This document shows, piece after piece, positions 5,340 to 63,976 of a stretch of 64,000 nt of DNA. A program made the position numbers and the translations under genes. The notes under the pieces are model-generated. The model worked only from the letters and a program-made list of their open reading frames with translations. It was not told where the DNA came from and ran no database searches. The number at the start of each line of letters is the position of its first letter. The stretch's first letter is position 1. This stretch comes from an uncultured Pseudomonadales bacterium (GTDB taxonomy: Bacteria; Patescibacteriota; Microgenomatia; UBA1400; MFAQ01): the NCBI GenBank assembly GCA_964513845.1, contig CAZENT010000001.1, positions 42,450 through 106,449 of the forward strand. The letters run 5' to 3'.

Positions 5340-5816
5340 CTAAAATAGACCTTTTTTCTTGAGTACTTGGATATCTTCTTGAAGATTGCTGAGTCTTTTT
5401 TCAATATCTTTTAAGGCATTGACGACATCGTCCTCTTCTGCGTCGTCCTCGACATAATCATCAGAAATGCCTTTGACGTTTAACTCAAGACTGTCCACGT
5501 CTTCTTGGATGTCACCAATATCCTCACCCAAGTCCTCAACGTCTTCTTGGATATTATCAATGTCTTTTTCTACTCCAGCAAGACTCTTTGTGGTGCGATT
5601 GACGGTCATCTGAATAAAGATGGAGAGATAAATGGCTTCAAGTGATACGGCGGTAGTAAGGATTAGAAGGACTTTATCGAGAGCCATCCCAAAAATTATC
5701 AAGATAAAAATACCCATAAATAGAGCTGTGTGAACCAAGATTGATTGTGGGGTACCAATCCAAAAAGTCAGTTTCTGCGACGCACGATCGAGGTTTGTAA
5801 TCTTTTTTTTGGGCAT
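5340..5816 (-). CDS. Small membrane protein with two TM helices and an acidic C-terminal coiled coil (DUF1003-like)
   Basis: ORF 5340..5864, with internal ATG at 5816 (MPKKKITNLD...). It has a hydrophobic hairpin followed by a D/E-rich repeat region. Confidence 0.5.
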   Translation of the reverse strand: MPKKKITNLDRASQKLTFWIGTPQSILVHTALFMGIFILIIFGMALDKVLLILTTAVSLEAIYLSIFIQMTVNRTTKSLAGVEKDIDNIQEDVEDLGEDIGDIQEDVDSLELNVKGISDDYVEDDAEEDDVVNALKDIEKRLSNLQEDIQVLKKKGLF

Positions 5817-5886
5817 CGTGTTATTTTCCCACAAATTGATGATAAAATACTGCCCATATCGCACACTAAAAAGAATTGGAGGAAGA

Positions 5887-6285
5887 ATGAGACCTGTATT
5901 GCAAGCTATTTTGATACCAACACGTGATTTTCAATTGAAAACTGATATTATGACTGGCTATAAAGATATCTTAATCTGGGAAGGTCATCGAGATTATCAT
6001 GTCGGAACAGTATTATTTTGTGATTGGGAAGAACCGTGGGTGGTAAGGGCATATATTTATGAAGTTCAACTCAAGATTCTGTCTCAAGTTACCCAAGAGG
6101 AATTGGAGCTGAATGATATTAACTCTATTGAAGAGCTGCTTAAGAAAATGCAAGAGCGCTACGGAGACATTACCATGGATTCACCTGTAACAGTTATTCG
6201 ATGGAAAAATGTTTGTGGTGCTTTGACCAGGAATGAAGAAATATATCATTATTCCAAGGTACACAAGACCAAACTCAATTTTTAG
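5887..6285 (+). CDS. Hypothetical protein (132 aa)
   Basis: ATG at 5887 is preceded by a GGAGG Shine-Dalgarno at 5878-5882. An intrinsic terminator follows immediately. Confidence 0.5.
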   Translation: MRPVLQAILIPTRDFQLKTDIMTGYKDILIWEGHRDYHVGTVLFCDWEEPWVVRAYIYEVQLKILSQVTQEELELNDINSIEELLKKMQERYGDITMDSPVTVIRWKNVCGALTRNEEIYHYSKVHKTKLNF

Positions 6286-13094: not shown

Positions 13095-14558
13095 GTGTAT
13101 AGAAGGTTTTTATTACCAGACGAGGTTGCATTGCTCCCTAGTGAGCTGAAGCAAGTGATGAGCCTGTATATTGCTCGCGGTTTTGAGATCTATTTGGTGG
13201 GAGGAGGTGTACGAAATATCCTGATGGAGAAAGTCCCGGAGAACTGTGATTTAACGACAAATGCAACACCGGAAGAAAGTTTAGAAATTTTGAAAGAGCT
13301 TGATCCTTTTTATAACAATGATTTTGGAACTGTTTCTTATGAAATTGAAATAGATGGGAAGAAAGAACTATACGAAATCACAACCTATCGTTCGGAAAAA
13401 GAATACTCAGATTATCGCCGTCCCGACAATGTAAGCTGGGGAAAAACTTTGGAAGAAGATGTTACGCGTAGAGACTTCACCGTGGGCGCAATGGTAATCG
13501 GCCAAAAAGATGGAAAATATGAAATTATTGATCTGGTTGGCGGACTAGAAGACTTTGAAAAGGGTTTGATTAGAGCTGTCGGTAACCCCGAAAAACGTTT
13601 TGGAGAAGATGCTCTGAGAATGATGAGAGCCATAAGAATTGCAGCCAAACTTGGTTTTTCGATCGAAGAAGAAACTTTGAAAGCAATTTCAGTCAAGGCA
13701 CCATTGCTTGCCAATATCAGTAAAGAAAGAGTGCGCGATGAGCTAATGAAAATTATTGGGTCTGATTATCCAGCAGACGGAGTATCTCTATTGATATCGA
13801 CTGGTTTGATGGAACAAATAATTCCAGAAGTTTTGGAAGGCAGAGGTGTAATGCAGGGAGGACACCACACTCTGACTGTATTAGATCACATGTTGGAGTG
13901 TTTACGAAATAGTTCTTCACCCGATCCTGTTGTGCGTTTTGCCACTTTTATTCATGATGTGGGTAAACCAAGAAGTCAGAGATATAAGTGCCGAAAATGC
14001 GGAAAAATGTTCAGAGATCTGGCTGAAGAAATGACCACATGCGCCGATTGCGGATTTAATCAGCCGACCAGAGGAATGATTACTTTTTACGGACATGAAG
14101 TTATTGGAGCAAGACTAGCTAAAGAAATATGCGAAAGACTTCGGTTTACAAATAAACAGACTGAAAAAGTTGTGACCCTGGTGCGAATGCACATGTTTGC
14201 TTATCAGCCAGAAATGACAGATGCTGCTATTAGAAGAATCATAAGAAAAGTAGGCAAGGAAAATATCGCCGATATGGTTCTCTTGCGAATTGCCGATCGA
14301 AAAGGAAGCGGAAGTAACACGACAAGTTGGAGATTTATGGAGCTGCAAAAAAGAATTGGCGAACAATTGTTTGAACCAATGGAAATTAATGACATGGCAG
14401 TTGATGGACGAGATGTGATGGAGGTTTTAAATATTCAACCCGGACCTATCGTAGGAAAGGTTTTGAAAGAGTTGTTTGACGAAGTACTGGAGGATACGAG
14501 CAAAAATAACAAAGAATATCTACTTTCACGAATTAAAGAGGTTGAAAAATCCATATAG
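13095..14558 (+). CDS. cca: CCA-adding tRNA nucleotidyltransferase with HD domain and an inserted zinc ribbon
   Basis: GGGVRN...DCDLTTNATPEE is a polymerase-beta head motif. HDVGKP...FYGHE is the HD domain, interrupted by CRKCGKMFRDLAEEMTTCADCG. The true start may be an internal ATG near 13161. Confidence 0.8.
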   Translation: MYRRFLLPDEVALLPSELKQVMSLYIARGFEIYLVGGGVRNILMEKVPENCDLTTNATPEESLEILKELDPFYNNDFGTVSYEIEIDGKKELYEITTYRSEKEYSDYRRPDNVSWGKTLEEDVTRRDFTVGAMVIGQKDGKYEIIDLVGGLEDFEKGLIRAVGNPEKRFGEDALRMMRAIRIAAKLGFSIEEETLKAISVKAPLLANISKERVRDELMKIIGSDYPADGVSLLISTGLMEQIIPEVLEGRGVMQGGHHTLTVLDHMLECLRNSSSPDPVVRFATFIHDVGKPRSQRYKCRKCGKMFRDLAEEMTTCADCGFNQPTRGMITFYGHEVIGARLAKEICERLRFTNKQTEKVVTLVRMHMFAYQPEMTDAAIRRIIRKVGKENIADMVLLRIADRKGSGSNTTSWRFMELQKRIGEQLFEPMEINDMAVDGRDVMEVLNIQPGPIVGKVLKELFDEVLEDTSKNNKEYLLSRIKEVEKSI

Positions 14559-14583
14559 ATTCCGGGTCAGGCCCGGAATGACA
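14554..14583 (+). repeat. Short palindromic repeat element, family A, copy 1 (TATAGATTCCGGGTCAGGCCCGGAATGACA)
   Basis: The same ~30-bp hairpin element recurs at 22371, 22950, 49456 and 57045. Its TAG supplies the stop codon of cca. Confidence 0.8.
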
Positions 14584-15507: not shown

Positions 15508-16899
15508 TTATTTCGTGTTTATTTTTTTGATAGATTGCCGCGTCGGAGTACCTCCTCGCAATGACGCGGACGCGAGTGTTTTGCCTTTGTAAAAAAGACG
15601 AAGAAGGTTTCGAGTGACAACTAACCCGGTAAATAAAGAGATTAAAATACCGAGAATTAGAGTTAAGGCAAAACCGCGAACTGCCCCTGAAGTGTTGAGA
15701 AAGTTCCAATCAAGGGGATTGAAAAGAATAAAACCAGTAATAATGGTGGCTGTGTTGGCGTCTTTGATACTGTCCCAGGCTCTGCCAAAAGCTAGTTCGA
15801 GAGCCACTCGCCAATCCCTGCCCGCCCTTATTTCTTCTTTGTAGCGCTCAAAAACTAAAATGTTGGAGTCAACCGCCATGCCAACAGAAAGTAGGAAACC
15901 GGCAATTCCTGGCAGACTGAGAACGACAGGAATTAGCTTGTAAAGAACTAGGGTAAATAATCCATAAAGAACTAAGCCAACAGAAGCGATTACCCCCATC
16001 CATCCGTAGTTACCAATCATGAAAAGAATAACCATGGAGAGCCCAATGGCACCGGCGGTAACGCTTTTTTGAATTGAGTCGGCGCCTAGTGTAGCTGGTA
16101 TATTTTTCTGACTTAAAACACTTACCGGAACGGGAAGCGCACCGGCGTTTAGCTGAACCGCAAGAGCTTTGGCTTCGTCTGTAGTGAAACTGCCCGTGAT
16201 TTGGGCATTTCCATCAAGAATTTCGACTTGAACTGTGGGCATAGTGACTGGATAGTTGTCCAACAAAATGGCGATGGGTTTGCCGATATTCTCTTTGGTG
16301 AGTTTGGCGAACTTGGTTTTTCCGGCATCTTTGAAAGAGATTGAAACTGCGGGCTGACGATCTTCGGTTTCAAAAGTAACCTGGGCTCTAGCTAGATCAG
16401 CACCGGTGAGATCTGTGGGAGAAAAACCCGACAAGGTGGCTGCGTCCGTGGCAGTTTTGCCTTCGGTGTAAATAGGAAGAGCGAACTCCATTTTGGCTGT
16501 TTGACCAATAAGGTCAAGTGCTTGCTGGGGATCGGTGACTCCAGGAAGTTCAAGAATCAAGCGATAGTCGTTGCCAGAGACTGCTGTTTTGATTCCTGAT
16601 TCTGACACACCAAACAGATCAATACGTCTGGAAATAACTGTTTTAACCGATTCTAAGGCTGTTGCACGGTCTTCGGCCTTGATCTCTTGCATGTCGGCAG
16701 TAAGGGTAACTTGAAGGCCGCCCTTGATGTCGAGACCTTGCTTGAGCTCTATTTCTTTTGAGAGATCGAGATTGCCAATCTTGAAATTGATTCTGGGAAC
16801 TTGAAAATTAAATATCTTTGTTGGGAGTACAAGATATAGCGACATCAGAGTGATAATCGCGATAAAAATAAAAACTTTCTGTGGTTTTTTGAGAGTCAT
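15508..16899 (-). CDS. secD: Protein translocase subunit SecD (C-terminus extended by an in-frame repeat element)
   Basis: SecD periplasmic domain and TM segments are present. The last ~20 codons (ASASLRGGTPTRQSIKKINTK) are encoded by family B element copy 1. Confidence 0.85.
   Translation of the reverse strand: MTLKKPQKVFIFIAIITLMSLYLVLPTKIFNFQVPRINFKIGNLDLSKEIELKQGLDIKGGLQVTLTADMQEIKAEDRATALESVKTVISRRIDLFGVSESGIKTAVSGNDYRLILELPGVTDPQQALDLIGQTAKMEFALPIYTEGKTATDAATLSGFSPTDLTGADLARAQVTFETEDRQPAVSISFKDAGKTKFAKLTKENIGKPIAILLDNYPVTMPTVQVEILDGNAQITGSFTTDEAKALAVQLNAGALPVPVSVLSQKNIPATLGADSIQKSVTAGAIGLSMVILFMIGNYGWMGVIASVGLVLYGLFTLVLYKLIPVVLSLPGIAGFLLSVGMAVDSNILVFERYKEEIRAGRDWRVALELAFGRAWDSIKDANTATIITGFILFNPLDWNFLNTSGAVRGFALTLILGILISLFTGLVVTRNLLRLFYKGKTLASASLRGGTPTRQSIKKINTK
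15529..15576 (+). repeat. Short palindromic repeat element, family B, copy 1 (GATAGATTGCCGCGTCGGAGTACCTCCTCGCAATGACGCGGACGCGAG)
   Basis: It shares its AGATTGCC...CCTCGCAATGAC core with copies at 30552 and 42026. Confidence 0.75.
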
Positions 16900-19902: not shown

Positions 19903-20598
19903 CTACTTCTTCTTGCTGAGATTTTTGTACCAACCTTCAAGAAGAGTTTTTACCAAGTCTTTTGATCCAAGTCCAAGACTAATTCCAATACCGAGTGCCA
20001 GGGCAGCTATAAAGCCTGTAAAGGTGGTTTCAATAAAGAATCGAGCAATGCCAAGCTGAGAGAGGGCGACCAGAATGAAGAGGGTTAGCGTGGCGTAACT
20101 GACAACCTTTCCAACCAAGCGAGAGAAGGCCGGATCACCTGAGCCTAGAGAACCTTTAACCATTTTTTCTAAGAAGCCGGCGATAAAAACACCAACTATT
20201 AGAATAATTATGGCGGCGACAAGGGTGGGAATACCTAAGATGATACTGTTGAGGAACTCGCTGACAGAAGTTAAACCCAGAACGTTGATACTAGCAATAA
20301 AGAACAAAATGATAATGATCCAGTGAATAATTTCGCCAATCACGACCTCAATTTTCTGAGTCATTTGAGCGTTTTTTAGAAACTCGTTAAAGGCAGTGTT
20401 TTTGATGATGCCACCAAGCTTGGTTAAGTTGACGAGTTTGATGGTGAGAGTTTTAAGCCAGCCAGCAAGAATGAGGCCAAATAAAAACAAGACAATAGCA
20501 CCCAATAGACTGGGAATAAAACTAACGATGCCAACGAGCATTTGATTAAAAGCAAAAGTGAGAGAGTTTTCGAAGGAATAAAAAACATTTGTGTTCAT
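19903..20598 (-). CDS. Polytopic membrane protein with repeated conserved TM-helix modules
   Basis: Four or more hydrophobic helices, resembling the N-terminal TM_helix repeats of small mechanosensitive-channel-like proteins. Confidence 0.45.
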   Translation of the reverse strand: MNTNVFYSFENSLTFAFNQMLVGIVSFIPSLLGAIVLFLFGLILAGWLKTLTIKLVNLTKLGGIIKNTAFNEFLKNAQMTQKIEVVIGEIIHWIIIILFFIASINVLGLTSVSEFLNSIILGIPTLVAAIIILIVGVFIAGFLEKMVKGSLGSGDPAFSRLVGKVVSYATLTLFILVALSQLGIARFFIETTFTGFIAALALGIGISLGLGSKDLVKTLLEGWYKNLSKKK

Positions 20599-20675: not shown

Positions 20676-20990
20676 ACACTCCCGGGTGCTGGTGAGGAAC
20701 GCCCTGCCGCAAGGCAGGGAGGAAAGTCCGGACAGCTAAAAGATAGGGTGACCAGGGAAACCTGGTTCTTCTCGAGGTGACTCGAGAGGCGCGATAGGGC
20801 CACAGAGACGAATAAAGGTGAAACGCTCTTGGTTACAAGAGATGGTTTAGAAGTAACTCTAAACTAGTGGTAACCCGCCCTGCTGCAATCGACGAATTGG
20901 GATTAAGGTATCTTTTCCGTCCCAGAAGTCTCGAGCATTAGATAGATGTTCCTCCTAGACAGAATCCGGCTTACTATGACCCGGGGGTCC
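20676..20990 (+). ncRNA. rnpB: RNase P RNA (bacterial type A, reduced length)
   Basis: Universally conserved P4 strands GGGAGGAAAGTCCGGAC (20717-20733) and ACAGAATCCGGCTTAC (20959-20974). P1 pairs cccgggt (20681-20687) with acccggg (20979-20985). An AGGTGAAACG...GGTTACAAGAG region resembles the J11/12-P12 region. Confidence 0.8.
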
Positions 20991-21995: not shown

Positions 21996-22991
21996 TTATT
22001 GGTATATTTTTTTCAATTGACTGATGAGGTTTGCTCTATCGGTACTTTTATCATACCAAACTATACCTGATTGTTTTTTAAACCAGACAGTTTGTCTTCG
22101 GGCGTAATCGACTTCAGAACGAGTCCAGGTTTCCACCAGCTCCTCATTGGAAACTTGACCTTCCAAGAAAGCAATTATTTGGGACACCCCCAGGCTAGTG
22201 TAAATGGGAAGGTTTCTGTTGGGATATTTGGTTAATAAATTTTTTACTTCGTCGATGGCACCATCGGCGATTCTATCCAAAACTCTTTTGTGGATTTGAT
22301 TTTTTATACTCTCTTTGTTGGGCATTATGCCAATCCAGTGAAATTGAGATTCTATTAGTGGGTTAATTTGAATAGATTCCCGATCAGGTCGGGAATGACA
22401 AGATTTTGTTATCGATGATGAGTTATTTAATGAGATTTCAATGGCGCGAATTAGCCGGCGAGGATTCATAAAATCCGAGTGATTAAGTGCTGCGAGTTTT
22501 TCTGGATTTTCTTTTTGAAGATAATCTTGAAGCTCTTTGGTGGTGAGCTTCTCTAGTTCTTTTCGCAATTCTTCGTTTGGTGGTACTAAAACATCCGAAA
22601 GATTTTGAGTAATGGCTTTTAAATACAAGCCTGTTCCCCCGACAATTATCAAGGGTGTTTTTGTGGCAATCGAGTCGTTGATTACTTTTTGAGAGTAACG
22701 ACAAAAATCTGCAAGATTTGCTCTTTCATCTGATCGAAAAATATCATGCCCAAATATTTTTATATTTTCGGGAAGGTTGAGCGGAATATCTTTCCCGGTG
22801 ATGATATCCAAATCTTGGTAAACTTGCCGTGAGTCAACCGATAAAATATTTGCTTTGGGCAGCTCTTTAGCTAAGTGAAGAGCAAGGCTAGTTTTGCCCG
22901 ATGCGGTTGGACCACAGATGACGACGATGTGATGATTGGAGTTAATTTGTATAGATTCCGGGTCAAGCCCGGAATGACATAGATATTTCAT
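21996..22991 (-). CDS. miaA: tRNA dimethylallyltransferase carrying two in-frame repeat-element insertions
   Basis: P-loop ICGPTASGKTSLAL and LSVDSRQVYQDLDIITGK match MiaA. Two ~13-aa insertions (CHSGLDPESIQIN at the N-terminus, CHSRPDRESIQIN mid-protein) coincide exactly with family A elements at 22950 and 22371. Confidence 0.8.
   Translation of the reverse strand: MKYLCHSGLDPESIQINSNHHIVVICGPTASGKTSLALHLAKELPKANILSVDSRQVYQDLDIITGKDIPLNLPENIKIFGHDIFRSDERANLADFCRYSQKVINDSIATKTPLIIVGGTGLYLKAITQNLSDVLVPPNEELRKELEKLTTKELQDYLQKENPEKLAALNHSDFMNPRRLIRAIEISLNNSSSITKSCHSRPDRESIQINPLIESQFHWIGIMPNKESIKNQIHKRVLDRIADGAIDEVKNLLTKYPNRNLPIYTSLGVSQIIAFLEGQVSNEELVETWTRSEVDYARRQTVWFKKQSGIVWYDKSTDRANLISQLKKIYQ
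22371..22400 (+). repeat. Short palindromic repeat element, family A, copy 2 (inside miaA, in frame)
   Basis: AATAGATTCCCGATCAGGTCGGGAATGACA. Confidence 0.8.
22950..22979 (+). repeat. Short palindromic repeat element, family A, copy 3 (inside the miaA 5' end, in frame)
   Basis: TATAGATTCCGGGTCAAGCCCGGAATGACA. Confidence 0.8.
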
Positions 22992-22993
22992 TT

Positions 22994-24145
22994 TTAGGGG
23001 ATTAGGGGTCTGTCTTTTAGGTTATCTTTGTTGGCAATTTGATCAAGAATTTCCCATCTTTGTTTTTTTACTTTGGCAGAAACGTCGTCAGGATAGAGCT
23101 TGAAGGAAGCAGTACCTGGACGAGGCGAGTATCTGGCAACAAAAGCAACTTTAAAGCCTACTTTTTTAATCAAGTCTAGTGTGTCCTCAAAATCTTCATC
23201 GGTTTCGCTGGGAAAACCAACAATAATATCAGTACCAAAAACGGCGTCCGGAACTTTGGCCTTGATCCTTTCTATCAAAGATAGATAAGACTCCCTGGTG
23301 TATCCTCGGTTCATAAGTTTAAGAATCCGATTACTTCCAGACTGAACTGGCAAGTGAATGAATCGGTCAATCTTGGGATTTCTTGCTATCTCATCGATTA
23401 ACTCATCCCAAAAATCCCAGGGGTTACTGGTAAAGAAAGTGATCTTCTCGATACCATGGATTTTGCTAATTTTTTGAAGAAGCAATACAAAAGGGGGGGT
23501 GTCTGTCGGTTTTTGATACTGAGATTCGTTTGAAGGAATGGAACTGGCGGTAAAGTTTTCTTTGTCCATGTAGAGCTTTCGCAGATTTATCCCTGATTTT
23601 TCCAAGCCGTATGAATTAACATTTTGACCAAGAAGATTGATGGTTTTGTAACCTTCTTTAGCGAGACTTTCAACTTCTTTGACAATGTCTTCCATTGAAC
23701 GCGATCTTTCTCTTCCCCGAGAAAATGGAACGATACAGTAAGTGCAAAATGAGTTACATCCAGTGGAGATGGGAACCCAAGCGTTGTCTTTATCTTTTCG
23801 AATAGATTTTTGATTGAAACCGACTTCGGCGATAGGAAGAATTTCATCAACATCAGGAAGCAATTCTTTTATCTCTTTTTCGTTGAAGTGAAGCATACAC
23901 CCAGTAAGGATTACCTTGGGCTTATGCTTGCCACTTTCTGCAAGAAATTTATTTAGATTTACGATAAACCCCTGAACTCTATCTTCGGCCGATTGACGAA
24001 CAGAGCAAGTATTGAGAACTATCTCATCCGCCTTTCTCCACTCTTGGGTTTCAGTGTAACCTCTGGCTGAGTAATCACCAAGAATTCTTTCGGAGTCTGA
24101 CTTATTTGCCTGACAACCGAATGTTTTGATGAATACTTTGGGCAT
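22994..24145 (-). CDS. miaB: tRNA-i6A37 methylthiotransferase (radical-SAM MTTase)
   Basis: N-terminal UPF0004 cysteines (FGCQAN, NTCSVR) and radical-SAM CxxxCxxC (CNSFCTYC). ATG at 24145 overlaps the hup stop (TAATG). Confidence 0.8.
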   Translation of the reverse strand: MPKVFIKTFGCQANKSDSERILGDYSARGYTETQEWRKADEIVLNTCSVRQSAEDRVQGFIVNLNKFLAESGKHKPKVILTGCMLHFNEKEIKELLPDVDEILPIAEVGFNQKSIRKDKDNAWVPISTGCNSFCTYCIVPFSRGRERSRSMEDIVKEVESLAKEGYKTINLLGQNVNSYGLEKSGINLRKLYMDKENFTASSIPSNESQYQKPTDTPPFVLLLQKISKIHGIEKITFFTSNPWDFWDELIDEIARNPKIDRFIHLPVQSGSNRILKLMNRGYTRESYLSLIERIKAKVPDAVFGTDIIVGFPSETDEDFEDTLDLIKKVGFKVAFVARYSPRPGTASFKLYPDDVSAKVKKQRWEILDQIANKDNLKDRPLIP

Positions 24146-24420
24146 TACCAAACCTTTTTCTTTAACGGTTTGCCTACATGAAAATTGATGACCTTGTGTC
24201 CTTTGACTACTTGTCTTTTGCCTTCGTTGCCAAAAGGAACAACTTGTTTGTCATCAACTTTGCCAACATAAAATGTACCAAAACCAGAAATAACTACCTT
24301 TTCGCCCTTACCCAGAGCAGCTATCGACTCTTCAAAAAATGTGTCGACTGTTTCTTTGACTGCCTTTTTGGTCAAGTGTACCTTTTTGGACACTATGCCG
24401 ATGAGTGTTTGTTTGGTCAT
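24145..24420 (-). CDS. hup: DNA-binding protein HU/IHF family
   Basis: MTKQTLIG...GFGTFYVGK...VPFGNEGKR is an HU-arm signature. GGGGTGA SD lies before the ATG at 24420. Confidence 0.8.
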   Translation of the reverse strand: MTKQTLIGIVSKKVHLTKKAVKETVDTFFEESIAALGKGEKVVISGFGTFYVGKVDDKQVVPFGNEGKRQVVKGHKVINFHVGKPLKKKVW

Positions 24421-29579: not shown

Positions 29580-30908
29580 GTGGATAAATTACGAAAGTAT
29601 GTTTTTTTTGTTTTGTTTTTTTTGGCAGTAGTAATTTTTTTGATTCATTATTCGGTTTCCGGACAAGCTGTCTATGGGGATGGCATTGGCTATTATTCTC
29701 ACCTGCATAGCTGGGTGATTGACGGCGACTGGAACTATACCAATGAGTACAAACATATTTATGATTGGGAACATAATAATTTCGATACCGGAGTTGAGTC
29801 ATCTGCAATACAAATAGTTTCGACAACCAAAGAGGGGGAAGCGGAAAACTTTTATGGTACTGGAGTGGCGGTGTTACTTTTGCCTTTTTATTTGATGGCT
29901 CATTTTATTTCTATCTTGGCCAATCTTTTTGGGGCGGGAATTTCCGTACAGGGATATGGAGACGCGTATCAAATACTGACAGGAATTGGGGCTGTTTTTT
30001 ACGCAGTCTGGGGAGTGTATTTTCTGAATAAAATGATTGATATTGTTATCCGAGATAACAAAATTAGCTTAATAAGTAGTGTGACGATTTTCTTGTCAAC
30101 CAGCTTGCTTTATTATGGTAGTTTTGACGTAATTAATTCTCACTTTGCTTCTTTCTTTTTGACCGTGGTTTTCTTTTATTTATTTTTTTCGAGAAAAAAC
30201 AATCTGCTTTTGGGGTTGGTGGCCGGACTTATCACATTAAATAGAGTTCAAGACTCTGTAGTGATATTGATTTGGCTTATCGATTTTTTACGAAATAAAA
30301 GGCCATTAATTACTGCAAAAAACTTCTTGATCGGATATGTTTTTGCTTTAATTCCGCTTTTCTTTCATTGGGGTAGTGTGATTGGAAATCCACTCAATCA
30401 TCCATATTTGCGAGGGCTTACTGAGAAAATTCAAGGTGGACAAAGCACTGACATTTTTGGAAGTCTGTTTAATCCAGTTACCGGATTGTTTTTTCGGACT
30501 CCCCTACTTTTGGTTTTGTTCTTGTATTTTTTGTGTTTAATTGTTAATTATTATAGATTGCCACGTCACTTCGCTCCTCGCAATGACAAGATTTATTTTG
30601 TATATCCATTTATATTCTTTTTAATGCAGTTTGTGATTATTACTCTTCAAGGCGGATGGGCGGCAGCTGCTTATGGAGGAAGAATGTATATTTCTTCTTT
30701 GGTGTTTTTTGGATTAGTGTTGGGAAAAATGCTCACCTGGATGAGTAAAAAAAATCATAGATTGGTCTATGTTTTTGTGATGACATTTATAGTAATAAAC
30801 TTTGTTTCTATGGCGATATTTATTTTGAGAGATAAGGGGGCAGAGGGTGGATCTCATGGCACTGAACAGAGAACAATCCAAAGACTTAATAAAATATTCC
30901 GAAAATAA
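29580..30908 (+). CDS. Polytopic membrane protein, GT-C (ArnT/PMT-like) glycosyltransferase-like, with an in-frame family B repeat insertion
   Basis: About 12 TM helices. The first periplasmic loop contains YGDGIGYY, DE/DG-x-YY-like. The peptide YRLPRHFAPRNDK is encoded by the element at 30552. Confidence 0.45.
   Translation: MDKLRKYVFFVLFFLAVVIFLIHYSVSGQAVYGDGIGYYSHLHSWVIDGDWNYTNEYKHIYDWEHNNFDTGVESSAIQIVSTTKEGEAENFYGTGVAVLLLPFYLMAHFISILANLFGAGISVQGYGDAYQILTGIGAVFYAVWGVYFLNKMIDIVIRDNKISLISSVTIFLSTSLLYYGSFDVINSHFASFFLTVVFFYLFFSRKNNLLLGLVAGLITLNRVQDSVVILIWLIDFLRNKRPLITAKNFLIGYVFALIPLFFHWGSVIGNPLNHPYLRGLTEKIQGGQSTDIFGSLFNPVTGLFFRTPLLLVLFLYFLCLIVNYYRLPRHFAPRNDKIYFVYPFIFFLMQFVIITLQGGWAAAAYGGRMYISSLVFFGLVLGKMLTWMSKKNHRLVYVFVMTFIVINFVSMAIFILRDKGAEGGSHGTEQRTIQRLNKIFRK
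30552..30588 (+). repeat. Short palindromic repeat element, family B, copy 2 (in frame within 29580..30908)
   Basis: TATAGATTGCCACGTCACTTCGCTCCTCGCAATGACA. Confidence 0.75.
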
Positions 30909-42025: not shown

Positions 42026-42059
42026 GAGATTGCCGCGTCACTTCGTTCCTCGCAATGAC
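42026..42059 (+). repeat. Short palindromic repeat element, family B, copy 3 (adk-secY intergenic)
   Basis: GAGATTGCCGCGTCACTTCGTTCCTCGCAATGAC. Confidence 0.75.
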
Positions 42060-42064
42060 GATAT

Positions 42065-48268: not shown

Positions 48269-48274
48269 ATACTT

Positions 48275-49455: not shown

Positions 49456-49485
49456 TATAGGTTCCCGATCAGGTCGGGAATGACA
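49456..49485 (+). repeat. Short palindromic repeat element, family A, copy 4 (rpsC-rplP intergenic)
   Basis: TATAGGTTCCCGATCAGGTCGGGAATGACA. Confidence 0.8.
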
Positions 49486-57044: not shown

Positions 57045-57073
57045 TATAGTTTCCCGCTTTCGCGGGAATGACA
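57045..57073 (+). repeat. Short palindromic repeat element, family A, copy 5 (helicase-fusA intergenic)
   Basis: TATAGTTTCCCGCTTTCGCGGGAATGACA. Confidence 0.8.
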
Positions 57074-57146: not shown

Positions 57147-59210
57147 TTATGGGTGGGTGTGGTGTCGGTGATTGCGACGGTCGTTTTTGTTAAGATTTTT
57201 TCGATGTTCTTTGTGATCTTTTGGTTTCGCTGCAAAAAGCTCTGGAGCATATTCTTTGAGCCACTCGATTTTAGCCTCAAAACAGTTACAGGCGTAGGCA
57301 TTTCCTTGAGGATTGACAAAAATTTCATTGGCAATAATGTAAGAACCTTTTGGGGGAATGTCTGAGGCTAGTACGGAGCCAGGATGAATCGAGATATCCC
57401 CTTTGGTGCCATCTACTTTGTGAAAATTATTTCTGCCTGTGTTTTTCAACAAATTGCCAATTAATCCGGAGGTGATAGCCTTGCCAATAGCGGTTTTATT
57501 GATCTTAGGTATTGTTTCCGGATCGATAAAGATATCGTGACTGTCAAGAACATCTAAGAGATCGAGGCGAACATTTTTGGCCTCTTCGAGGGCTTTTTCG
57601 TTGAGAAAATTATTTTTGGCCCAATCTGGGTTGTAGCCGCTGGCCGCATACGCTTTCCAAACATTTAAATAGACGAAAAAATCTGATTCTGCACCCTGAA
57701 CAAACGAAGCATGTGCGTTTTCAGCAACATACTCGAACTCTCTTTCTTGCGGTTTTACAAAGATGTTTTTGCCATCAAGGAAAGAGGCAATGATAGTAAT
57801 TTCATTTAAGCAGTCAATTTCCGGCCTCATGGCCTCAAGAAGCATTCGACCTAGGCGAGGCTCAATCCCCAACTCAACAAGCCACTCCCCAATTTCGGTA
57901 ATGTTTCCTTCGTCATCAATGGCGCCAAGAGTGGTAAGGGTTTTGATGGCTTGAGCGATGGCCTTTTCGCCGGGATGATCTAAGAAATCGAAATCCAATA
58001 TATTCTGAATGCCGAATTTCTTCATGGTCAACACAACTTGGGACAGGTCGGAACGCTGGATTTCCGGAGTTTGGAACTGAGGACGTCTTCTGAGACTGCT
58101 TTCGGTGAAAAGTCGGTAACAGTACCCTGGGGCGGTTCGCCCTGATCTTCCCTTGCGCTGATCGATACCGCTGATGGCGTGTTCGGTAAGGACAAGCTGT
58201 TCGATACCACTTCTGGGATCAAATTGGGTTTGTTTGATGTATCCAGAGTCTATGACGTGAATAATACCGTCGATCGTAATTGAGGTTTCAGCGATATTGG
58301 TAGCAACGATAATTTTTCTTTTTTTGGAGGGCAAGAAAATCTTGTCTTGTTCGTCTGGGGCCATTTCGGCGTGTAATGGGAAAATATCAACTGTTTGAGG
58401 ATTAATTCGGGCTTCGATTTTGGCAATGGTGTTTGATATTTCCTTTTTTCCAGGCATAAAAATGAGAATGTCACCATCAAGATCATTGTCGATAATGGCT
58501 TTGACTTTTTCGGCGGCACCCTGAGTAAAATCGTAGTAAACAGGCGTTTCCTTTTCATAAAAAACCTCTACGGGAAACATTTTCCCCGGTATTTCGACCA
58601 AGTTTTCTTTGTCTCCCTCGCCAATGTACTCGGCAAATCGATTCCTCTCGATGGTGGCTGAGGTAACAACAATGCGAATTGTTTCAATCCCGGCTTGAAT
58701 ACGAGCCTGATTGGCACTCTTTAGAAGTCCCAGACAAAGGTCGATGTTTAAACTTCGCTCGTGGGCTTCATCGATCATAACAATGGAGTACTCGGACAAA
58801 AGAGGGTCAAACTGGATTTTTCTCAGTAAAATGCCGTCCGTCATAAAAGTAATGTCTGTCTTTTTGGAGGTGATGTCTTCGAAACGAATGTGATAACCAA
58901 CCCTTTCCCCCACCTCACACTGCATCATGTCTGAGACACGACTAGTCATGCTTTTGGTGACAATTCTTCTTGGTTGAGTTACAGCGATGCCACCCTTGAG
59001 ATGAAGCTCATTTCTTAGCTCAAGCAAGAGAGGTGGCAAGCAGGATGTTTTTCCAGATCCGGTTTCGCCAACCAGAACAAAGTATGGGTGAAGCCTAATT
59101 TCATCGCGCAAAAACTCTCTCAAATATGCCACAGGAATCTGATCCAGATTTTCTAGAGCATACTCAGAAGAACGATTGTACCGACTGCTTTCAATTGATT
59201 TTGAGGCCAT
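57147..59210 (-). CDS. DEAH-box ATP-dependent RNA helicase (HrpA/HrpB-like) inserted in the str operon
   Basis: Motifs I GETGSGKT, II DEAH, III SAT, V TNIAETSITI and VI QRKGRSGR are present. 687 aa. Confidence 0.8.
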   Translation of the reverse strand: MASKSIESSRYNRSSEYALENLDQIPVAYLREFLRDEIRLHPYFVLVGETGSGKTSCLPPLLLELRNELHLKGGIAVTQPRRIVTKSMTSRVSDMMQCEVGERVGYHIRFEDITSKKTDITFMTDGILLRKIQFDPLLSEYSIVMIDEAHERSLNIDLCLGLLKSANQARIQAGIETIRIVVTSATIERNRFAEYIGEGDKENLVEIPGKMFPVEVFYEKETPVYYDFTQGAAEKVKAIIDNDLDGDILIFMPGKKEISNTIAKIEARINPQTVDIFPLHAEMAPDEQDKIFLPSKKRKIIVATNIAETSITIDGIIHVIDSGYIKQTQFDPRSGIEQLVLTEHAISGIDQRKGRSGRTAPGYCYRLFTESSLRRRPQFQTPEIQRSDLSQVVLTMKKFGIQNILDFDFLDHPGEKAIAQAIKTLTTLGAIDDEGNITEIGEWLVELGIEPRLGRMLLEAMRPEIDCLNEITIIASFLDGKNIFVKPQEREFEYVAENAHASFVQGAESDFFVYLNVWKAYAASGYNPDWAKNNFLNEKALEEAKNVRLDLLDVLDSHDIFIDPETIPKINKTAIGKAITSGLIGNLLKNTGRNNFHKVDGTKGDISIHPGSVLASDIPPKGSYIIANEIFVNPQGNAYACNCFEAKIEWLKEYAPELFAAKPKDHKEHRKNLNKNDRRNHRHHTHP

Positions 59211-60265: not shown

Positions 60266-63200
60266 TCAGATATTCTCTATTTTTGCTCTGAGCTTGCTTG
60301 TAGGTACCAAGCGACCAATGATGACATTTTCTTTCATGCCGATTAGGTGATCGATCTTGCCTTGAACCGCAGCGTCTGTTAGAACGGAAGTGGTGTCTTG
60401 GAAGGAAGCGGCGGATAGCCAGGAATCGGTGTGTAGAGCAGCTCTAATAGCGCCAAGAATTAAGTTGGTAGCTGTGGCTGGTTCTCCACCTTGAGCAATA
60501 ACAGCTTCGTTGGCCATTTCATAAGCTCCACGGCTGATTACATCGCCAGCAACAAGGGCGGTGTCACCAACAGCGTCGATGCGGACATAGTCACACATCT
60601 TGCGGAGGATAACTTCGAAATGCTTGTCATGAATACTGATACCCTGGGACTCGTAGATTGACTGAATTTCGCCGATAAGGTAGTTTTGTGTAGCTCTGAG
60701 ACCTTTGATCTTGAGAAGTTGTTTGATATCTACTCCTCCGGAAGCTAGTTGAGTGCCAACCGAGATCAAATCTCCATCTGCGACCTTGAGAGACATAGCT
60801 AAAGGAATCAAGTACTCTTTGCGATCTTCTTTGGCCTTACTGCCAGGAGTGACGGTAACAAGATTACCATTTTCGGTTTCAACTACTTTGACCTTGCCAG
60901 AAATTTCGGAAATTGGAGCAACAAGTTTGGGCATACGAACTTCCAAAAGCTCTGTAACACGAGGAAGGCCTTGGGTAACGTCAACACCAGCAGCACCTCC
61001 AGAGTGTTTGGTACGCATAGTTAGCTGTGTTCCAGGCTCACCAATGGACTGGGCGGCGATGATGCCAACCGGGTCACCAACGATAGCCAGCTTGTTGGTT
61101 GCGGTGTTGTGCCCATAACATTTGGCACAAAGACCAAATCGGAGCTTACAGGTGATCGGGGATCTGACCTCGACCTCTTTAACTCCAACAGCCTCAATGA
61201 CAGCAGCAAGTTCTTCTGTAATGAGTTCACCAGCATCGACAATTACTTTCTTGGTATCAGGATTGACGATCTTGTGAACGGCGAAACGGTGAACAATACG
61301 TTTGGCGAAGATCTTGCCACCTCTTTCTTCAGCAACGATGGTGATAAATTCATCAGTACCACAGTCTTCAGCACGAACAACAGCGTCGTGACTGACGTCA
61401 ACTAGACGACGAGTTAGGTAACCAGCGTCTGCGGTACGAAGAGCAGTGTCGGTAAGACCTTTTCGGGAACCTCTAATGGAAGTAACATACTCGAAGATAG
61501 AAAGACCTTCACGGAAGTTTCCTTTGATAGGAAGCTCAATGAGATTACCCAGAGGATCAGCGATAAGTCCACGCATGGCGGAGAGCTGTTCGATGGAGTT
61601 CTTGGTAACACGTCCTGAAGCTGAGTCGATAACCAAACGAATTGGGTTGGTCTTGGAGAAAGTGGTCCAGGTCTTTTCGGCGAGGTCGGCAGCTGTTTCT
61701 CTCCACATATTGATGGTGAGTTTGCTTCTTTCACTATTGGTAATTAAACCTAGCCTGTAGTTTTCTTCAATTTCTTCAGCTTTCTTGTTTCCAATGGCAA
61801 TGAGCTCAGCTTTTTGTGGATAGATTTCGTTATCGGAGATGGCGAAACTAAAACTACTGATGGTCGCATACTCAAAACCGATACTCTTGACTGCGTCGAT
61901 CAATTTAACGACACGTTTGGTGTCGACTGTTTTGATAGCGCGAGTAAAGAAAGCAGAGATTTCTTTTCCAGTAAGACTCTTGTTTTGGAATTCCCATTCT
62001 TTAGGAAGAATCTGGTTGAAGATAATACGACCAACCGTGGTCGTGGTCATTTCCATGGTTTCAGGATTGAGACGAACATCAATTGGCTGGCGAACTTCAA
62101 TAACCTTGTTTTGGTAGGCTGTGATAGCCTCAGCGGAACTACCAAAAGGATATTTGTAAGGAGTAAGAGTTTCGTCGATACTGGTTAAGTAGTAAACACC
62201 GACGGCCATCTCTTTACGAGAAGGAATGTTGACACTTTGTCCGGAAGAGGGCTTAAGAAGGTTGAACTGAGGCAACATGAACTTCTTGGCCTCACGAATA
62301 GCTTTTTTGGTCAAAGGAACGTGAACAGCCATCTGGTCACCATCGAAGTCAGCGTTAAAACCTTCACAGACAACAGGGTGAAGACGAATAGCAGAACCAT
62401 CAACTAAAACCGGTAAGAAGGCAAGAATAGAAAGCTTGTGAAGTGTGGGAGCACGGTTTAGAAGGATAGGATGCTTTTTGGTAATTCTTTCCAAGATATC
62501 GAAAACTTCAGGCTGGCGTTTTTCAATTAAAGCTTTGGCCGCTTTAACGTTTGGAGCTAGATCCTGTTTGATGATCTCGTGAAGTACGAATGGTTTGAAC
62601 ATTTCAAGAGCCATGTCTTTGGGAAGACCACACTGGTTAAGTTTGAGCTCTGGGCCAACGATAATAACGGAACGGCCGGAGTAGTCAACGCGTTTTCCAA
62701 GAAGGTTCTGGCGGAAACGACCCTGTTTTCCACGAAGCATGTCGGAAAGAGATTTGAGGGTTTTGCCGGTTCTGGATCTTCTGGTTGATCTAGCTTGAGA
62801 AGAGTCGATTAAAGAATCAACCGCTTCCTGAAGCATGCGTTTTTCGTTTCTTAAAATAATCTCAGGAGCACCGAGATCGATGAGATGCTTTAAACGATTG
62901 TTACGGTTGATGACGCGACGATAAAGATCGTTTAAATCAGATGCAGCGAAACGGCCACCAGAAAGCTGAACCATAGGACGAAGATCTGGAGGGATAACAG
63001 GAAGAACTTCGAGAACCATCCACTCGGGTTTGACCTTGGAATCAAGAAGTCCACGAACGACTTGAAGTCGTTTGGTGGCTCTAAGACGTTTGGCCTCGGA
63101 GTTTGAAAGAGACTCTTCTTTGAGCTTAACAACCAGTTCTTCAAGATTAACTTTCTTTAAGGCGTCAAGAATGGCTTCAGAACCCATACCGGCAGTCAAC

Positions 63201-63976
63201 CAATCTACAAGATTGTATTCGGCCAGTTTGGCGTATTCAGAGTCTGACAAAAGAGAGTTGACTTGAATTCTTTCAATAATAACAGCAAGTTTAGAGTAGA
63301 TTTCTTCGGTAAAAGCAAGCTCGACAACCATCTGCTCTCTAAGACAGGCAATTTTTTGTTTGGCTTCAGTCTTAAGATCGTCGGACTTAAGCTCGACTTC
63401 GTCTTTGGCCTTGGATTTTTTCTTAACTTCAGCAAGTTCTTTCTGACCGGTTTTTTTGACCTCTTCGATTTGAGTATCAAAATTGACACGCACCTCTTCA
63501 AGTTTGGCCTCTTTTTGAAGATTAATATTTTTTAGGGCTTCTTCTCTCTTTTCTTCATCAATAGACATGATGAGGAATTTACTGAAATAGATAACGGAAG
63601 TTAAAGCTTTGGGAGAGATATCGAGAAGCAAGGAAAGCTTTGAGGGCGCACCTTTGAAGAACCAAACATGAGCAACAGGAGCAGCAAGATTGATGTGGCC
63701 CATACGCTCACGACGAACGCGACTGAGGGTAACTTCAACACCACACTTGTCACAGATAATACCCTTGAATCGGACACGTTTGTACTTACCACAGTAACAC
63801 TCCCAGTCTTTGACAGGTCCAAAAATTCTTTCACAAAAAAGGCCATCCTTTTCTGGTTTTTGAGTACGATAGTTGATGGTTTCTGGCTTTGTTACCAAGC
63901 CGTGGGACCATTTTTTTACGTCGTCTGGACTGGCGAGCCTTATTTGTAAACCGGAGAAATCGACAATGTTGTTCAT
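60266..63976 (-). CDS. rpoC: DNA-directed RNA polymerase subunit beta' (complete, 1236 aa)
   Basis: Zinc-binding CxxC...CxxC N-terminus, the NADFDGD catalytic motif, and trigger-loop/bridge-helix regions. Confidence 0.95.

What the first reader, a model, noticed from the sequence alone, without database searches (positions are those of the whole stretch)
14554..14583. Family A palindromic mobile repeat: 5 copies in 43 kb, all in the same orientation, consensus TATAG-(A/G)TTCC(C/G)G-loop-CGGGAATGACA
The copies are at 14554, 22371, 22950, 49456 and 57045. Each has a 6-7 bp GC-rich stem and a 4-6 nt loop, flanked by a 5' TATAGATT and a 3' AATGACA. All five are on the + strand although they lie in different contexts: the cca 3' end, where the element's TAG serves as the cca stop codon; inside miaA twice; between rpsC and rplP; and between the helicase gene and fusA. 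The strict single orientation relative to the predominantly minus-strand transcription means every copy is transcribed as the same hairpin RNA strand (GUCAUUCCCG...CGGGAA...CUAUA). That suggests selection at the RNA level (stability element, RNase target or small-RNA-like motif) rather than random MITE insertion. The density, about 1 per 5-9 kb, is high for a reduced genome.
Basis: seen in the sequence. Interest (0 to 1): 0.7.

Follow-up and report, generated by a model that had tools for sequence, protein, structure and literature searches.

The report
Known palindromic repeat in tiny bacterium
The five hairpin repeats are real copies of an already described family of small mobile palindromic DNA repeats (the "CGTC-tagged REPs", also known from Neisseria and Rickettsia), here found in an uncultured candidate-phyla-radiation bacterium. 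Their shared direction follows the DNA strand rather than the direction of transcription.

Summary
All five copies are at the stated coordinates, on one strand, and far above chance. Read on the minus strand, each is YGTC + 8-bp stem starting ATT + 4-5-nt loop + CTATA + an A/T-rich tail, about 44 nt. That matches the published CGTC-tagged REP superfamily (Neisseria dRS3, Rickettsia RPE-4/-6). The host is not a reduced proteobacterium but a CPR/Microgenomates bacterium.

The elements are mobile or turn over. A 99.3%-identical strain has an extra copy between rplN and rplX. A 99.9%-identical strain carries a different repeat family ("B") at both miaA sites. Both miaA copies are in-frame insertions.

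The window also holds three family-B units. All eight units share one orientation. One of them lies in-frame but antisense inside a plus-strand gene, and the cca copy is also antisense to the gene it ends. So the claim that every copy is transcribed as the same RNA strand fails.

In 133 units of the same subfamily from metagenomes, 54 are sense and 55 antisense. Orientation does correlate with local GC skew (p = 2e-4). No copy looks like a terminator, and none matches an Rfam family.

Verdict: a new host lineage for a known kind of element. Strand-specific mobilisation coupled to replication is the best, still inferred, mechanism. Selection at the RNA level is not supported.

The parts
14554..14583 (-). 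Family-A unit 1. Minus strand: TGTC-ATTCCGGG-CCTGA-CCCGGAAT-CTATA, with the tail running to about 14541. It lies between convergent cca (+) and secF (-), and its TAG on the + strand is the cca stop codon.
   Evidence: The RNA hairpin is -16.3 kcal/mol, z -3.1. It is identical in contigs L130/L131 from the same sample series.
22371..22400 (-). Family-A unit 2. It is an in-frame insertion inside miaA encoding CHSRPDRESIQINP, in the variable linker after the conserved ...RAIEIS motif.
   Evidence: In the near-identical strain L124 a family-B unit replaces it. Relative P0018/L147 has an A unit (SHSGLDPESI) at the same linker.
22950..22979 (-). Family-A unit 3, at codons 5-14 of the miaA ORF (MK-YLCHSGLDPESIQINS-NHH...), 2 nt downstream of the stop of the miaB-like gene.
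   Evidence: It is absent from the 90%-identical MiaA P0001, which starts MKNDHH.... L124 has a family-B unit upstream instead. L147 has B+A in tandem there.
49456..49485 (-). Family-A unit 4, in the 46-nt rpsC-rplP spacer. It starts 3 nt after the rpsC stop, and its tail ...AAAAACAT abuts the rplP ATG. The outer stem pair is broken (A.C on the mRNA strand).
   Evidence: It is identical in five samples, L125-L129.
57045..57073 (-). Family-A unit 5 (TGTC-ATTCCCGC-GAAA-GCGGGAAa-CTATA), the 4-nt-loop type, in the helicase-fusA spacer.
   Evidence: It is conserved in strains L134-L136. Its core translates to CHSRESG, the peptide listed for Rickettsia conorii CGTC-1 elements.
15533..15566 (-). Family-B unit 1 (CGTCATTGCGAGGAGGTACTCCGACGCGGCAATCTA). 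It has the same terminal tags and the same orientation as family A, and lies in-frame in the last codons of secD.
   Evidence: secD of relative L147 is 13 aa shorter.
30556..30588 (-). Family-B unit 2, in-frame but antisense inside the + strand membrane glycosyltransferase-like gene 29580-30908. It encodes YRLPRHFAPRND.
   Evidence: Full-length homologues lack the 11-14 residues.
42028..42060 (-). Family-B unit 3, in the secY-adk spacer, starting 5 nt after the secY stop.
48269..48274 (.). Empty insertion site (rplN-rplX spacer, AAGTAT on the minus strand). Strain L126 carries a 44-nt family-A unit here in the same orientation, with no clear target duplication.
21996..22991 (-). miaA (tRNA dimethylallyltransferase), the host gene of two in-frame units.

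Best explanation
The five repeats are singleton copies of CGTC-tagged repetitive extragenic palindromes. In Di Nocera's scheme they are the 8-bp-stem types CGTC-1 (4-nt loop, copy 5) and CGTC-2-like (5-nt loop, copies 1-4). They share a core with Neisseria dRS3 and Rickettsia RPE-6. The host is a CPR/Microgenomates bacterium.

Each unit is a roughly 44-nt non-autonomous element: a YGTC tag, a hairpin, then CTATA plus an A/T-rich tail.

Shown:
- The units insert or are lost within a population of near-identical strains.
- They sit where they do little harm: directly after stop codons, in A/T-rich spacers in front of start codons, and in-frame in tolerant protein segments. The last resembles the Rickettsia palindromic elements.
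- A second family (B) with the same end tags shares their sites and their orientation.
- Orientation follows the DNA strand. The YGTC strand is the C-rich strand, so the strand reading 5'-TATAG-hairpin-GACA-3' is the G-rich one. Orientation does not follow transcription.

Inferred:
- The G-rich strand is normally the lagging-strand template.
- The units are therefore most likely mobilised as single-stranded DNA hairpins at the replication fork by a trans-acting enzyme. The likeliest type is an HUH/Y1 transposase of the IS200/IS605-RAYT kind. That would give strand-specific insertion without target-site duplication.
- No such enzyme was found in the sequence available.
For: Identity. The anatomy matches the published definition of the family: a TGTC/CGTC tag, an 8-bp stem starting AT, a 4-5-nt loop and a short unpaired tail. 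The peptide encoded by copy 5 (CHSRESG) matches R. conorii CGTC-1 entries CHSRESGNP. The syntenic relative L147 carries the canonical CCA tail. The same motif with fully palindromic extensions occurs in at least 120 loci of many phyla, including Legionella, Rickettsia, Saccharibacteria, Peribacteria, Shapirobacteria and Collierbacteria.

Hairpin. Stems differ between copies by compensatory changes (GGG/CCC, CGA/TCG, CGC/GCG).

Mobility and turnover. There is an extra 44-nt copy in L126 at an otherwise identical site. A and B exchange at both miaA sites in L124, where differences from the window cluster at those two sites apart from one ~120-nt divergent tract at 20160-20280, read as a recombination import. 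Upstream of miaA three states exist: B+A in L147, B only in L124, A only in the window.

In-frame insertions. These are seen in MiaA and in the glycosyltransferase-like protein.

Orientation.
- 8 of 8 units in the window share one orientation (2 x 0.5^8 = 0.008).
- GC skew at third codon positions is positive on the + strand for genes of both orientations (+0.415 and +0.172).
- In metagenome loci the YGTC strand is C-rich in 58 against 34 (p = 0.016).
- After controlling for gene-strand balance the effect is -0.062 +/- 0.016, p = 2e-4, and orientation is uncorrelated with gene strand (r = -0.06).
- In one 841-kb relative, 14 of 20 units lie on the C-rich strand.

No target duplication is seen at the filled site, as expected for HUH-type single-strand transposition (established knowledge for IS200/IS605; see PMC6006769).
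Against: No transposase of any kind was found. This is a weak test, and only 64 kb of the genome is available. The 2013 survey itself states that CGTC REPs lack a dedicated transposase.

The link to GC skew is absent in the phylum-wide set (57 against 47, singletons 35 against 30, beta -0.009). It is only about 70% in the 841-kb relative.

Loci in the metagenome set are not all independent, and genes there were called with a crude ORF heuristic.

GC skew is only a proxy for replication direction. Under that reading, 84% of the coding sequence here, including the ribosomal protein operon, would be head-on to replication, which is unusual.

Units at orthologous sites are nearly identical between relatives whose MiaA is only 60% identical. 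That needs either selection or repeated re-insertion or conversion, so a host function is not excluded.
Confidence: 0.6

Rival explanations
1. The hairpins are selected RNA elements (mRNA stabilisers, RNase targets or small-RNA-like motifs). The single orientation exists because only one transcribed strand is functional.
For: In the window and its closest relatives most units are sense to the neighbouring genes: 6 of 8 in the window, the extra copy in L126, and all units in L147 and L149. Many start 1-5 nt after a stop codon, which is the position REP stabilisers occupy in other bacteria (PMC3733652 section read). The hairpins are stable as RNA (-9 to -16 kcal/mol, z -2.3 to -4.0). Units at orthologous sites stay nearly identical across deep divergence.
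Against: B2 is antisense inside a + strand gene, and copy 1 overlaps the stop of a + strand gene. In the same subfamily 54 units are sense and 55 antisense; phylum-wide the count is 22 against 24. In copy 4 the stem variant gives G.U on the untranscribed strand but A.C on the mRNA. Two copies are translated within MiaA. There is no Rfam match and no terminator signature. The sense majority in the window is what a fixed DNA-strand orientation predicts when 84% of the coding sequence is on that strand.
Confidence: 0.12
2. The units are host-recruited DNA sites. They could be a binding or target site for a chromosomal protein (gyrase, IHF or another nucleoid protein), for an IS110-family or phage recombinase, or a polar chromosome-organising motif. 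They would then be kept by selection at the DNA level, with the tags giving polarity relative to replication.
For: Orientation correlates with GC skew rather than with transcription. The sequence is conserved at orthologous sites between distant relatives. Two families with unrelated stems keep identical end tags, YGTCATT...AATCYA. REPs are known targets of IS110-family elements such as IS1111 in Coxiella (PMC5896051).
Against: Copies come and go between near-identical strains. The strand bias is only about 63-70% outside this window, far from the near-absolute skew of known polar motifs. No recombinase or IS is seen next to any unit in the window. Units inside coding sequences are better explained by tolerated insertion than by placement for a DNA function.
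Confidence: 0.15
3. The five motifs are chance or convergent GC-rich hairpins with no common origin.
For: None beyond the shortness of the motif.
Against: There are 5 observed against 0.8-0.9 expected, with 0 of 100 shuffles reaching 5. The tags and tail outside the palindrome are shared. The same unit is found in hundreds of loci elsewhere.
Confidence: 0.01

Closest known systems
CGTC-tagged REP superfamily (Di Nocera, De Gregorio & Rocco 2013, PMC3733652), especially CGTC-1 (= Neisseria dRS3, Rickettsia conorii RPE-6) and the 5-nt-loop 8-bp-stem type
   Same: The unpaired CGTC/TGTC tag, the 8-bp stem beginning AT(T), the 4-5-nt loop and the short unpaired tail. The core ATTCCCGC-GAAA-GCGGGAAT is identical, and the encoded peptides match (CHSRESG..., and on the other strand ...SRFRGND). 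Positions are the same: just downstream of ORFs, supplying stop codons, and sometimes inside ORFs.
   Different: The tail here is CTA(TA) plus an A/T-rich extension instead of CCA, although relative L147 has CCA. All units are singletons in one orientation, whereas CGTC repeats are described as mostly head-to-head dimers. The host is a CPR/Microgenomates bacterium, a group not in the 2013 survey. A link between orientation and GC skew had not been reported.
Rickettsia palindromic elements (RPE), selfish DNA inserted in-frame in protein-coding genes
   Same: Short palindromic repeats inserted in-frame in housekeeping genes of a small genome (here miaA twice, secD and a membrane glycosyltransferase-like gene). 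They add 11-16 residues at variable, presumably surface-exposed segments. RPE-4 and RPE-6 are themselves CGTC repeats.
   Different: The classical RPE-1 is 100-150 bp, and these are about 44 nt. Here the inserted segment differs between strains that are 99.9% identical elsewhere.
GTAG REPs / REPINs mobilised by RAYT (TnpA-REP) Y1 HUH transposases; IS200/IS605 single-strand transposition
   Same: A hairpin with a conserved unpaired tetranucleotide at its foot. On the G-rich strand these units read (T)ATAG + hairpin. There is no target duplication at the one filled site, and orientation is biased with respect to a proxy for the replication strand, as shown for IS608-type elements.
   Different: The tag is not GTAG. 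No RAYT gene or REPtron was found. There are no inverted doublets (REPINs) in the window. The link to an HUH enzyme is an inference.
Coxiella burnetii QMITE2 / GTAG REP targeted by IS1111 (Wachter et al. 2018, PMC5896051)
   Same: A REP-based small repeat that overlaps the 3' ends of genes. C. burnetii also carries CGTC repeats, according to PMC3733652.
   Different: QMITE2 is 150-190 bp with terminal inverted repeats and 7-11-nt direct repeats, and is built on a GTAG REP. The window is not from Coxiella. No IS1111/IS110 element was seen.

Membership tests
CGTC-tagged REP superfamily (PMC3733652) | Unpaired terminal CGTC motif, with TGTC or CCTC accepted as variants | tested here: met
   TGTC in all five window copies. 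CGTC in the extra copy of L126 and in family-B units.
CGTC-tagged REP superfamily (PMC3733652) | Stem of 8-9 bp with complementary A-T in the first and second positions | tested here: met
   ATTCCGGG/CCCGGAAT, ATTCCCGA/TCGGGAAT and (A)TTCCCGC/GCGGGAA(T). The outer pair is broken in copies 4 and 5.
CGTC-tagged REP superfamily (PMC3733652) | Loop of 4 nt (family 1) or 5 nt (families 2-4) | tested here: met
   5 nt in copies 1-4 and 4 nt in copy 5.
CGTC-tagged REP superfamily (PMC3733652) | Short unpaired tail, mostly CCA | tested here: inconclusive
   The window copies have CTA(TA), not CCA. The syntenic relative L147 has CCA on orthologous units. I read this as a tail variant.
CGTC-tagged REP superfamily (PMC3733652) | Sequence identity with named members (dRS3 / RPE-6 core) | tested here: met
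   Copy 5 translates to CHSRESG. The supplement lists CHSRESGNP, VIPAKAGI, SFPRKRES and DSRFRGND for R. conorii CGTC-1. The figure with the consensus sequences is not held, so the assignment of copies 1-4 to family CGTC-2 rests on the text description only.
CGTC-tagged REP superfamily (PMC3733652) | Predominantly organised as head-to-head dimers | tested here: not met
   All eight window units are singletons in one orientation. Dimers do occur in relatives (L148, and L221 of the 841-kb contig). The paper presents this as a tendency, not a requirement.
GTAG REP / REPIN-RAYT system | 5' GTAG (GT[AG]G) guide tetranucleotide at the foot of the hairpin | tested here: not met
   The opposite end reads (T)ATAG, and the first G is missing in all copies.
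GTAG REP / REPIN-RAYT system | A RAYT/TnpA-REP gene flanked by the REPs (REPtron) in the same genome | not testable with these tools
   Only 64 kb of the genome is available. Nothing was found in the window or the loci held at that point (L001-L149) with a crude tblastn and motif scan.
MITE | Terminal inverted repeats enclosing a 100-400-bp body, flanked by target-site duplications | tested here: not met
   The unit is about 44 nt and is a single hairpin plus tail. There is no clear duplication at the filled versus empty site.
Intrinsic terminator | GC-rich hairpin immediately followed by a T run on the transcribed strand | tested here: not met
   None of the eight units is among the terminator-like sites on either strand. 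Several lie inside operons or ORFs.
Rickettsia-type in-frame palindromic insertions (RPE behaviour) | The repeat is inserted in-frame in a conserved protein gene and is absent from orthologues | tested here: met
   MiaA N-terminus and linker. Glycosyltransferase-like protein.

The most novel reading that the evidence does not exclude
In Microgenomates-type CPR bacteria, two hairpin families with unrelated stems but identical end tags (YGTCATT...AATCYA) are handled by one strand-specific single-stranded-DNA machinery tied to the replication fork. This machinery places them on the lagging-strand template. It repeatedly re-uses the same landing sites, including sites inside essential genes, so that cassettes A and B replace one another between otherwise identical strains. 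That would supply the missing mobilisation mechanism for the 'orphan' CGTC REP superfamily, and it would make these repeats a source of rapid protein-segment variation in ultra-small genomes.
Probability: 0.2. Interest if true: 0.6.

Novelty: new member of a known kind. Interest (0 to 1): 0.35.

Why it matters
The element belongs to a described kind, so the finding is mainly a correct spot of an ordinary repeat family.

Three things go modestly beyond the literature I could search:
1. CGTC-type REPs are abundant in candidate-phyla-radiation genomes and are written into their proteins: MiaA, SecD, a glycosyltransferase-like protein and, in a Shapirobacteria contig, pilin leader peptides.
2. They turn over between strains that are 99-99.9% identical, and two families exchange at the same sites.
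3. In this subfamily, orientation correlates with GC skew and not with transcription. This is the first hint I know of towards a replication-coupled, single-strand mobilisation of the CGTC REPs, which have no known transposase.

On the practical side, these repeats break short-read assemblies (contig L124 ends inside one) and create spurious peptide motifs in CPR protein databases.

Tried and rejected
1. Coxiella burnetii QMITE1/QMITE2 was my first guess, from the 42% GC content and the motif. I rejected it. The exact ribosomal proteins occur only in uncultured-sample assemblies. MiaA homologues are from Microgenomates, Woesebacteria and Collierbacteria. QMITEs are 150-400 bp with terminal inverted repeats and direct repeats.

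2. Rfam found only RNase P at gathering threshold, and nothing over the repeats at E <= 10.

3. The terminator reading is rejected.

4. Target-site duplication: the one filled versus empty pair shows only an ambiguous AAA microhomology and a 3-nt replacement.

5. The RAYT search gave no hit. It used tblastn with an E. coli YafM sequence written from memory and an HUH...Y regex over the window and the loci held at that point (L001-L149). It is too weak to count as absence.

6. The source genome was not among the hits of either collection scan.

7. An orientation rule across all phyla was not found, either against transcription or against GC skew.

8. I did not build a covariance model. Regular-expression scans for the core palindrome and for both tags already showed no further copies in the window.

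9. Literature search for REPs or palindromic elements in CPR/Patescibacteria found nothing relevant in the held library.
Full report
**Observation.**
- GGAATGACA occurs five times, always on the + strand, against 0.79 expected. TTCC-N(6-16)-GGAATGA also occurs five times against 0.88 expected. No shuffle reached five in either test.
- A scan for the core palindrome and for both flanking tags found no further copy on either strand.
- An alignment shows conservation extending beyond the 30 nt that were reported.
- On the minus strand the unit reads YGTC / ATTCCSRN / 4-5-nt loop / NYSGGAAT / CTATA, followed by an A/T-rich tail (cAAATtAAc). The total is about 44 nt.
- Stems are 8 bp, or 7 bp in copies 4 and 5.
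- Stems differ between copies by fully compensatory changes: GGG/CCC, CGA/TCG and CGC/GCG.
- As RNA the hairpins fold at -9 to -16 kcal/mol.

**Context.**
Pfam assignments confirm the neighbouring genes.
- The TAG of copy 1 is the stop codon of a cca-type nucleotidyltransferase gene on the + strand, which converges on secF.
- Copies 2 and 3 lie inside the miaA ORF.
- Copy 4 lies in the rpsC-rplP spacer.
- Copy 5 lies between a DEAH-type helicase gene and fusA.
- Both miaA copies are in-frame. Copy 3 encodes YLCHSGLDPESIQINS directly after Met-Lys. Copy 2 encodes CHSRPDRESIQINP in the variable linker after the conserved RAIEIS motif.

**Organism.**
I first suspected Coxiella, because of the 42% GC content and a motif reminiscent of Coxiella and Neisseria repeats. 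That is wrong.
- The exact L16 and S3 proteins occur only in assemblies of uncultured samples.
- The named MiaA homologues are from Microgenomates-group, Woesebacteria and Collierbacteria bins.
- The window therefore comes from a candidate-phyla-radiation bacterium.

**What it is.**
The anatomy matches the CGTC-tagged REP superfamily of Di Nocera et al. 2013 (PMC3733652).
- That family is defined by an unpaired CGTC tag (often TGTC), an 8-9-bp stem starting with A-T pairs, a 4-5-nt loop and a short tail.
- Its members usually sit just downstream of ORFs, sometimes supply stop codons, and sometimes lie inside ORFs.
- The paper equates CGTC-1 with Neisseria dRS3 and Rickettsia RPE-6.
- Its supplement lists the peptides CHSRESGNP, VIPAKAGI, SFPRKRES and DSRFRGND for R. 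conorii CGTC-1. Copy 5 translates to CHSRESG.
- A scan of one genome per species with ATAG-N-TTCCSG-N(4-9)-CSGGAATGAC hit its 120-locus limit.
- Those hits have perfectly palindromic extensions. They come from many phyla, including Legionella, Rickettsia, Dehalococcoidia and several CPR groups.
- The tail in the window is CTA rather than the usual CCA. The syntenic relative L147 has CCA on the orthologous units.
- No Rfam family matches.
- None of the units is terminator-like on either strand.

**Mobility and turnover.**
I compared the window with contigs of nearly identical strains.
- The rpsC-rplP copy and the helicase-fusA copy are fixed in all strains.
- Strain L126 is 99.2-99.4% identical. 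It carries an extra unit between rplN and rplX, where the window and L127 have the empty site GTCGTCTAAAAGTATATG.
- That unit reads CACGTCATTCCCGACCTGATCGGGAAACTATAAAGATATAAAAC. It has the same orientation as the others and no clear target duplication.
- Strain L124 is about 99.9% identical over 4 kb. It differs from the window almost only at the two miaA repeat sites and in one ~120-nt, ~17%-divergent tract at 20160-20280, which I read as an imported recombination tract.
- At both miaA sites L124 has a different repeat, family B (TGTCATTGCGAGGAGCGAAGCGAYGTGGCAATCT). Family B shares the end tags YGTCATT...AATCT with family A.
- The more distant syntenic relative L147 has B and A in tandem upstream of miaA, an A unit inside miaA, and a decayed A plus a B after secF.
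- The same sites are therefore occupied again and again, by either family. The states B+A, B alone and A alone all exist.
- This could arise by insertion next to an existing unit followed by loss, or by short recombination tracts between lineages. I cannot tell which.

**Orientation.**
The window contains three family-B units, at 15533-15566, 30556-30588 and 42028-42060. All three have the YGTC tag on the minus strand, like the five A units. That makes eight of eight in one orientation (nominal p = 0.008).
It lies in-frame inside a + strand gene, encoding YRLPRHFAPRND.
- That gene has full-length homologues that lack this segment. B2 is therefore transcribed as the opposite strand from the others.
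- Copy 1 is likewise part of a + strand gene.
- With 84% of coding bases on the minus strand, a fixed DNA-strand orientation already predicts that most units will be sense.

Outside the window there is no rule relating orientation to transcription.
- In the 120 phylum-wide loci, 22 units between co-directional genes are sense and 24 antisense.
- A metagenome scan for the lineage-type tail (GTCATTCCSG-N(4-7)-CSGGAANCTATWNAAAT) also hit its 120-locus limit.
- Among its 133 units, 54 are sense and 55 antisense.

Orientation does relate to GC skew.
- In the window, third-position GC skew is positive on the + strand for genes of both orientations (+0.415 and +0.172). The YGTC strand is therefore the C-rich strand.
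- In the metagenome set the YGTC strand is C-rich in 58 loci against 34 (p = 0.016).
- A regression of locus skew on gene-strand balance and unit orientation gives an orientation effect of -0.062 +/- 0.016 (p = 2e-4). Orientation is uncorrelated with gene strand.
- In six loci of one 841-kb Microgenomates contig, 14 of 20 units lie on the C-rich strand.
- The effect is absent in the phylum-wide set.
- The metagenome loci are not all independent, and the gene calls are crude. I treat this as moderate evidence.

**Mechanism.**
Shown:
- The family identity.
- The hairpin, with compensatory stems.
- Gain, loss and replacement between close strains.
- In-frame insertion.
- Independence from transcription direction.

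Inferred:
- By the standard model, the G-rich strand is the lagging-strand template.
- On that strand the units read 5'-(T)ATAG-hairpin-GAC(A)-3'. This is formally like a GTAG REP or an IS200/IS605 end.
- IS200/IS605 elements are processed as single strands by HUH/Y1 transposases at the fork, without target duplication (background in PMC6006769).
- I therefore favour strand-specific, replication-coupled mobilisation in trans.

Against this:
- No candidate enzyme was found (a weak test on little sequence).
- The 2013 survey found no dedicated transposase for CGTC repeats.
- If the skew reflects replication, the ribosomal protein operon here would be head-on to the fork, which is odd.
- Units at orthologous sites are almost identical between relatives whose MiaA is only 60% identical. 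This points either to selection for a host function or to continual re-insertion or conversion.

**Verdict.**
The element is a known kind of repeat in a new host lineage. The idea that the single orientation reflects selection on one RNA strand is not. The orientation-skew link and the A/B exchange at fixed sites are the only parts that go beyond the published description, and both need a complete genome to be settled.

Noticed in passing
window 15533-15566, 30556-30588, 42028-42060 (all minus strand): There is a second repeat family ('B', YGTCATTGCGAGGAG...GYGGCAATCTA). It has the same end tags and orientation as family A but a different, imperfect palindrome. One copy is in-frame at the secD C-terminus, one is in-frame and antisense in a + strand membrane protein gene, and one is in the secY-adk spacer.
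   Followed up: partly
window 4000-64000; also L147, L149 and six loci of contig Ga0265292_1000006: The + strand is G-rich (third-position skew +0.415 in minus-strand genes and +0.172 in plus-strand genes), yet 84% of the coding sequence, including the ribosomal protein operon and the large ORF 60266-63976, is on the minus strand. If the skew reflects replication, most genes are head-on to the fork. In the 841-kb relative the skew (-0.11 to -0.33) is likewise independent of gene strand over more than 500 kb. The sign changes near 4 kb in the window.
   Followed up: partly
window 57147-59210 (minus strand): A 687-aa DEAH/HrpA-like helicase gene (DEAD, Helicase_C, HA2, OB_NTP_bind domains) sits between rpsG and fusA inside the conserved rpsL-rpsG-fusA-tuf cluster. 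It is present in all strains examined.
   Followed up: no
window 22994-24151 (minus strand); L147 8754-9905: The MiaB-like radical-SAM gene (UPF0004 + Radical_SAM) directly upstream of miaA is only 383-385 aa, and no TRAM domain was detected. Its stop lies 2 nt from the miaA start in the window.
   Followed up: no
window 20160-20280 versus L124: A tract of about 120 nt is about 17% divergent, with substitutions only and no gaps, inside a gene that is otherwise identical between two strains. It looks like a short imported recombination tract.
   Followed up: partly
window 20681-20989 (+ strand): Bacterial RNase P RNA class A scores just above threshold (105 bits against 100). It is on the strand opposite to the surrounding genes.
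   Followed up: no
L057 463-1797 (Candidatus Shapirobacteria contig PEWA01000028.1): Three tandem genes whose products start with pilin-like hydrophobic N-termini each begin with a leader encoded by the repeat read on its other strand (...SRFRGNDG / FSLVEL...). The repeat would supply the residues just before the prepilin-like FSLVEL/FTLFEL motif. The pilin identity is my reading of the sequences and was not tested against Pfam.
   Followed up: no
L025 about 5750-5900 (Ignavibacterium album MAG): Head-to-tail copies of the repeat with a 36-nt period (ATAGATTCCCGCTTTCGCGGGAATGACAGAGAAAAA): two full matches and partial copies in both flanks, so at least three to four units in a row, falling inside a long ORF.
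   Followed up: no
L024, L103 (Bathyarchaeota MAG HYP3_US_13_22) and L104 (Oceanospirillum MAG HYP3_US_01_1): The only archaeal hits share about 20 nt of flanking sequence on both sides with a bacterial MAG from the same study. This suggests a longer shared repeat, or mis-binned contigs, rather than true presence in an archaeon.
   Followed up: no
L124 position 1: The short-read contig of the sister strain ends inside a family-B unit upstream of miaA. These repeats break assemblies.
   Followed up: no
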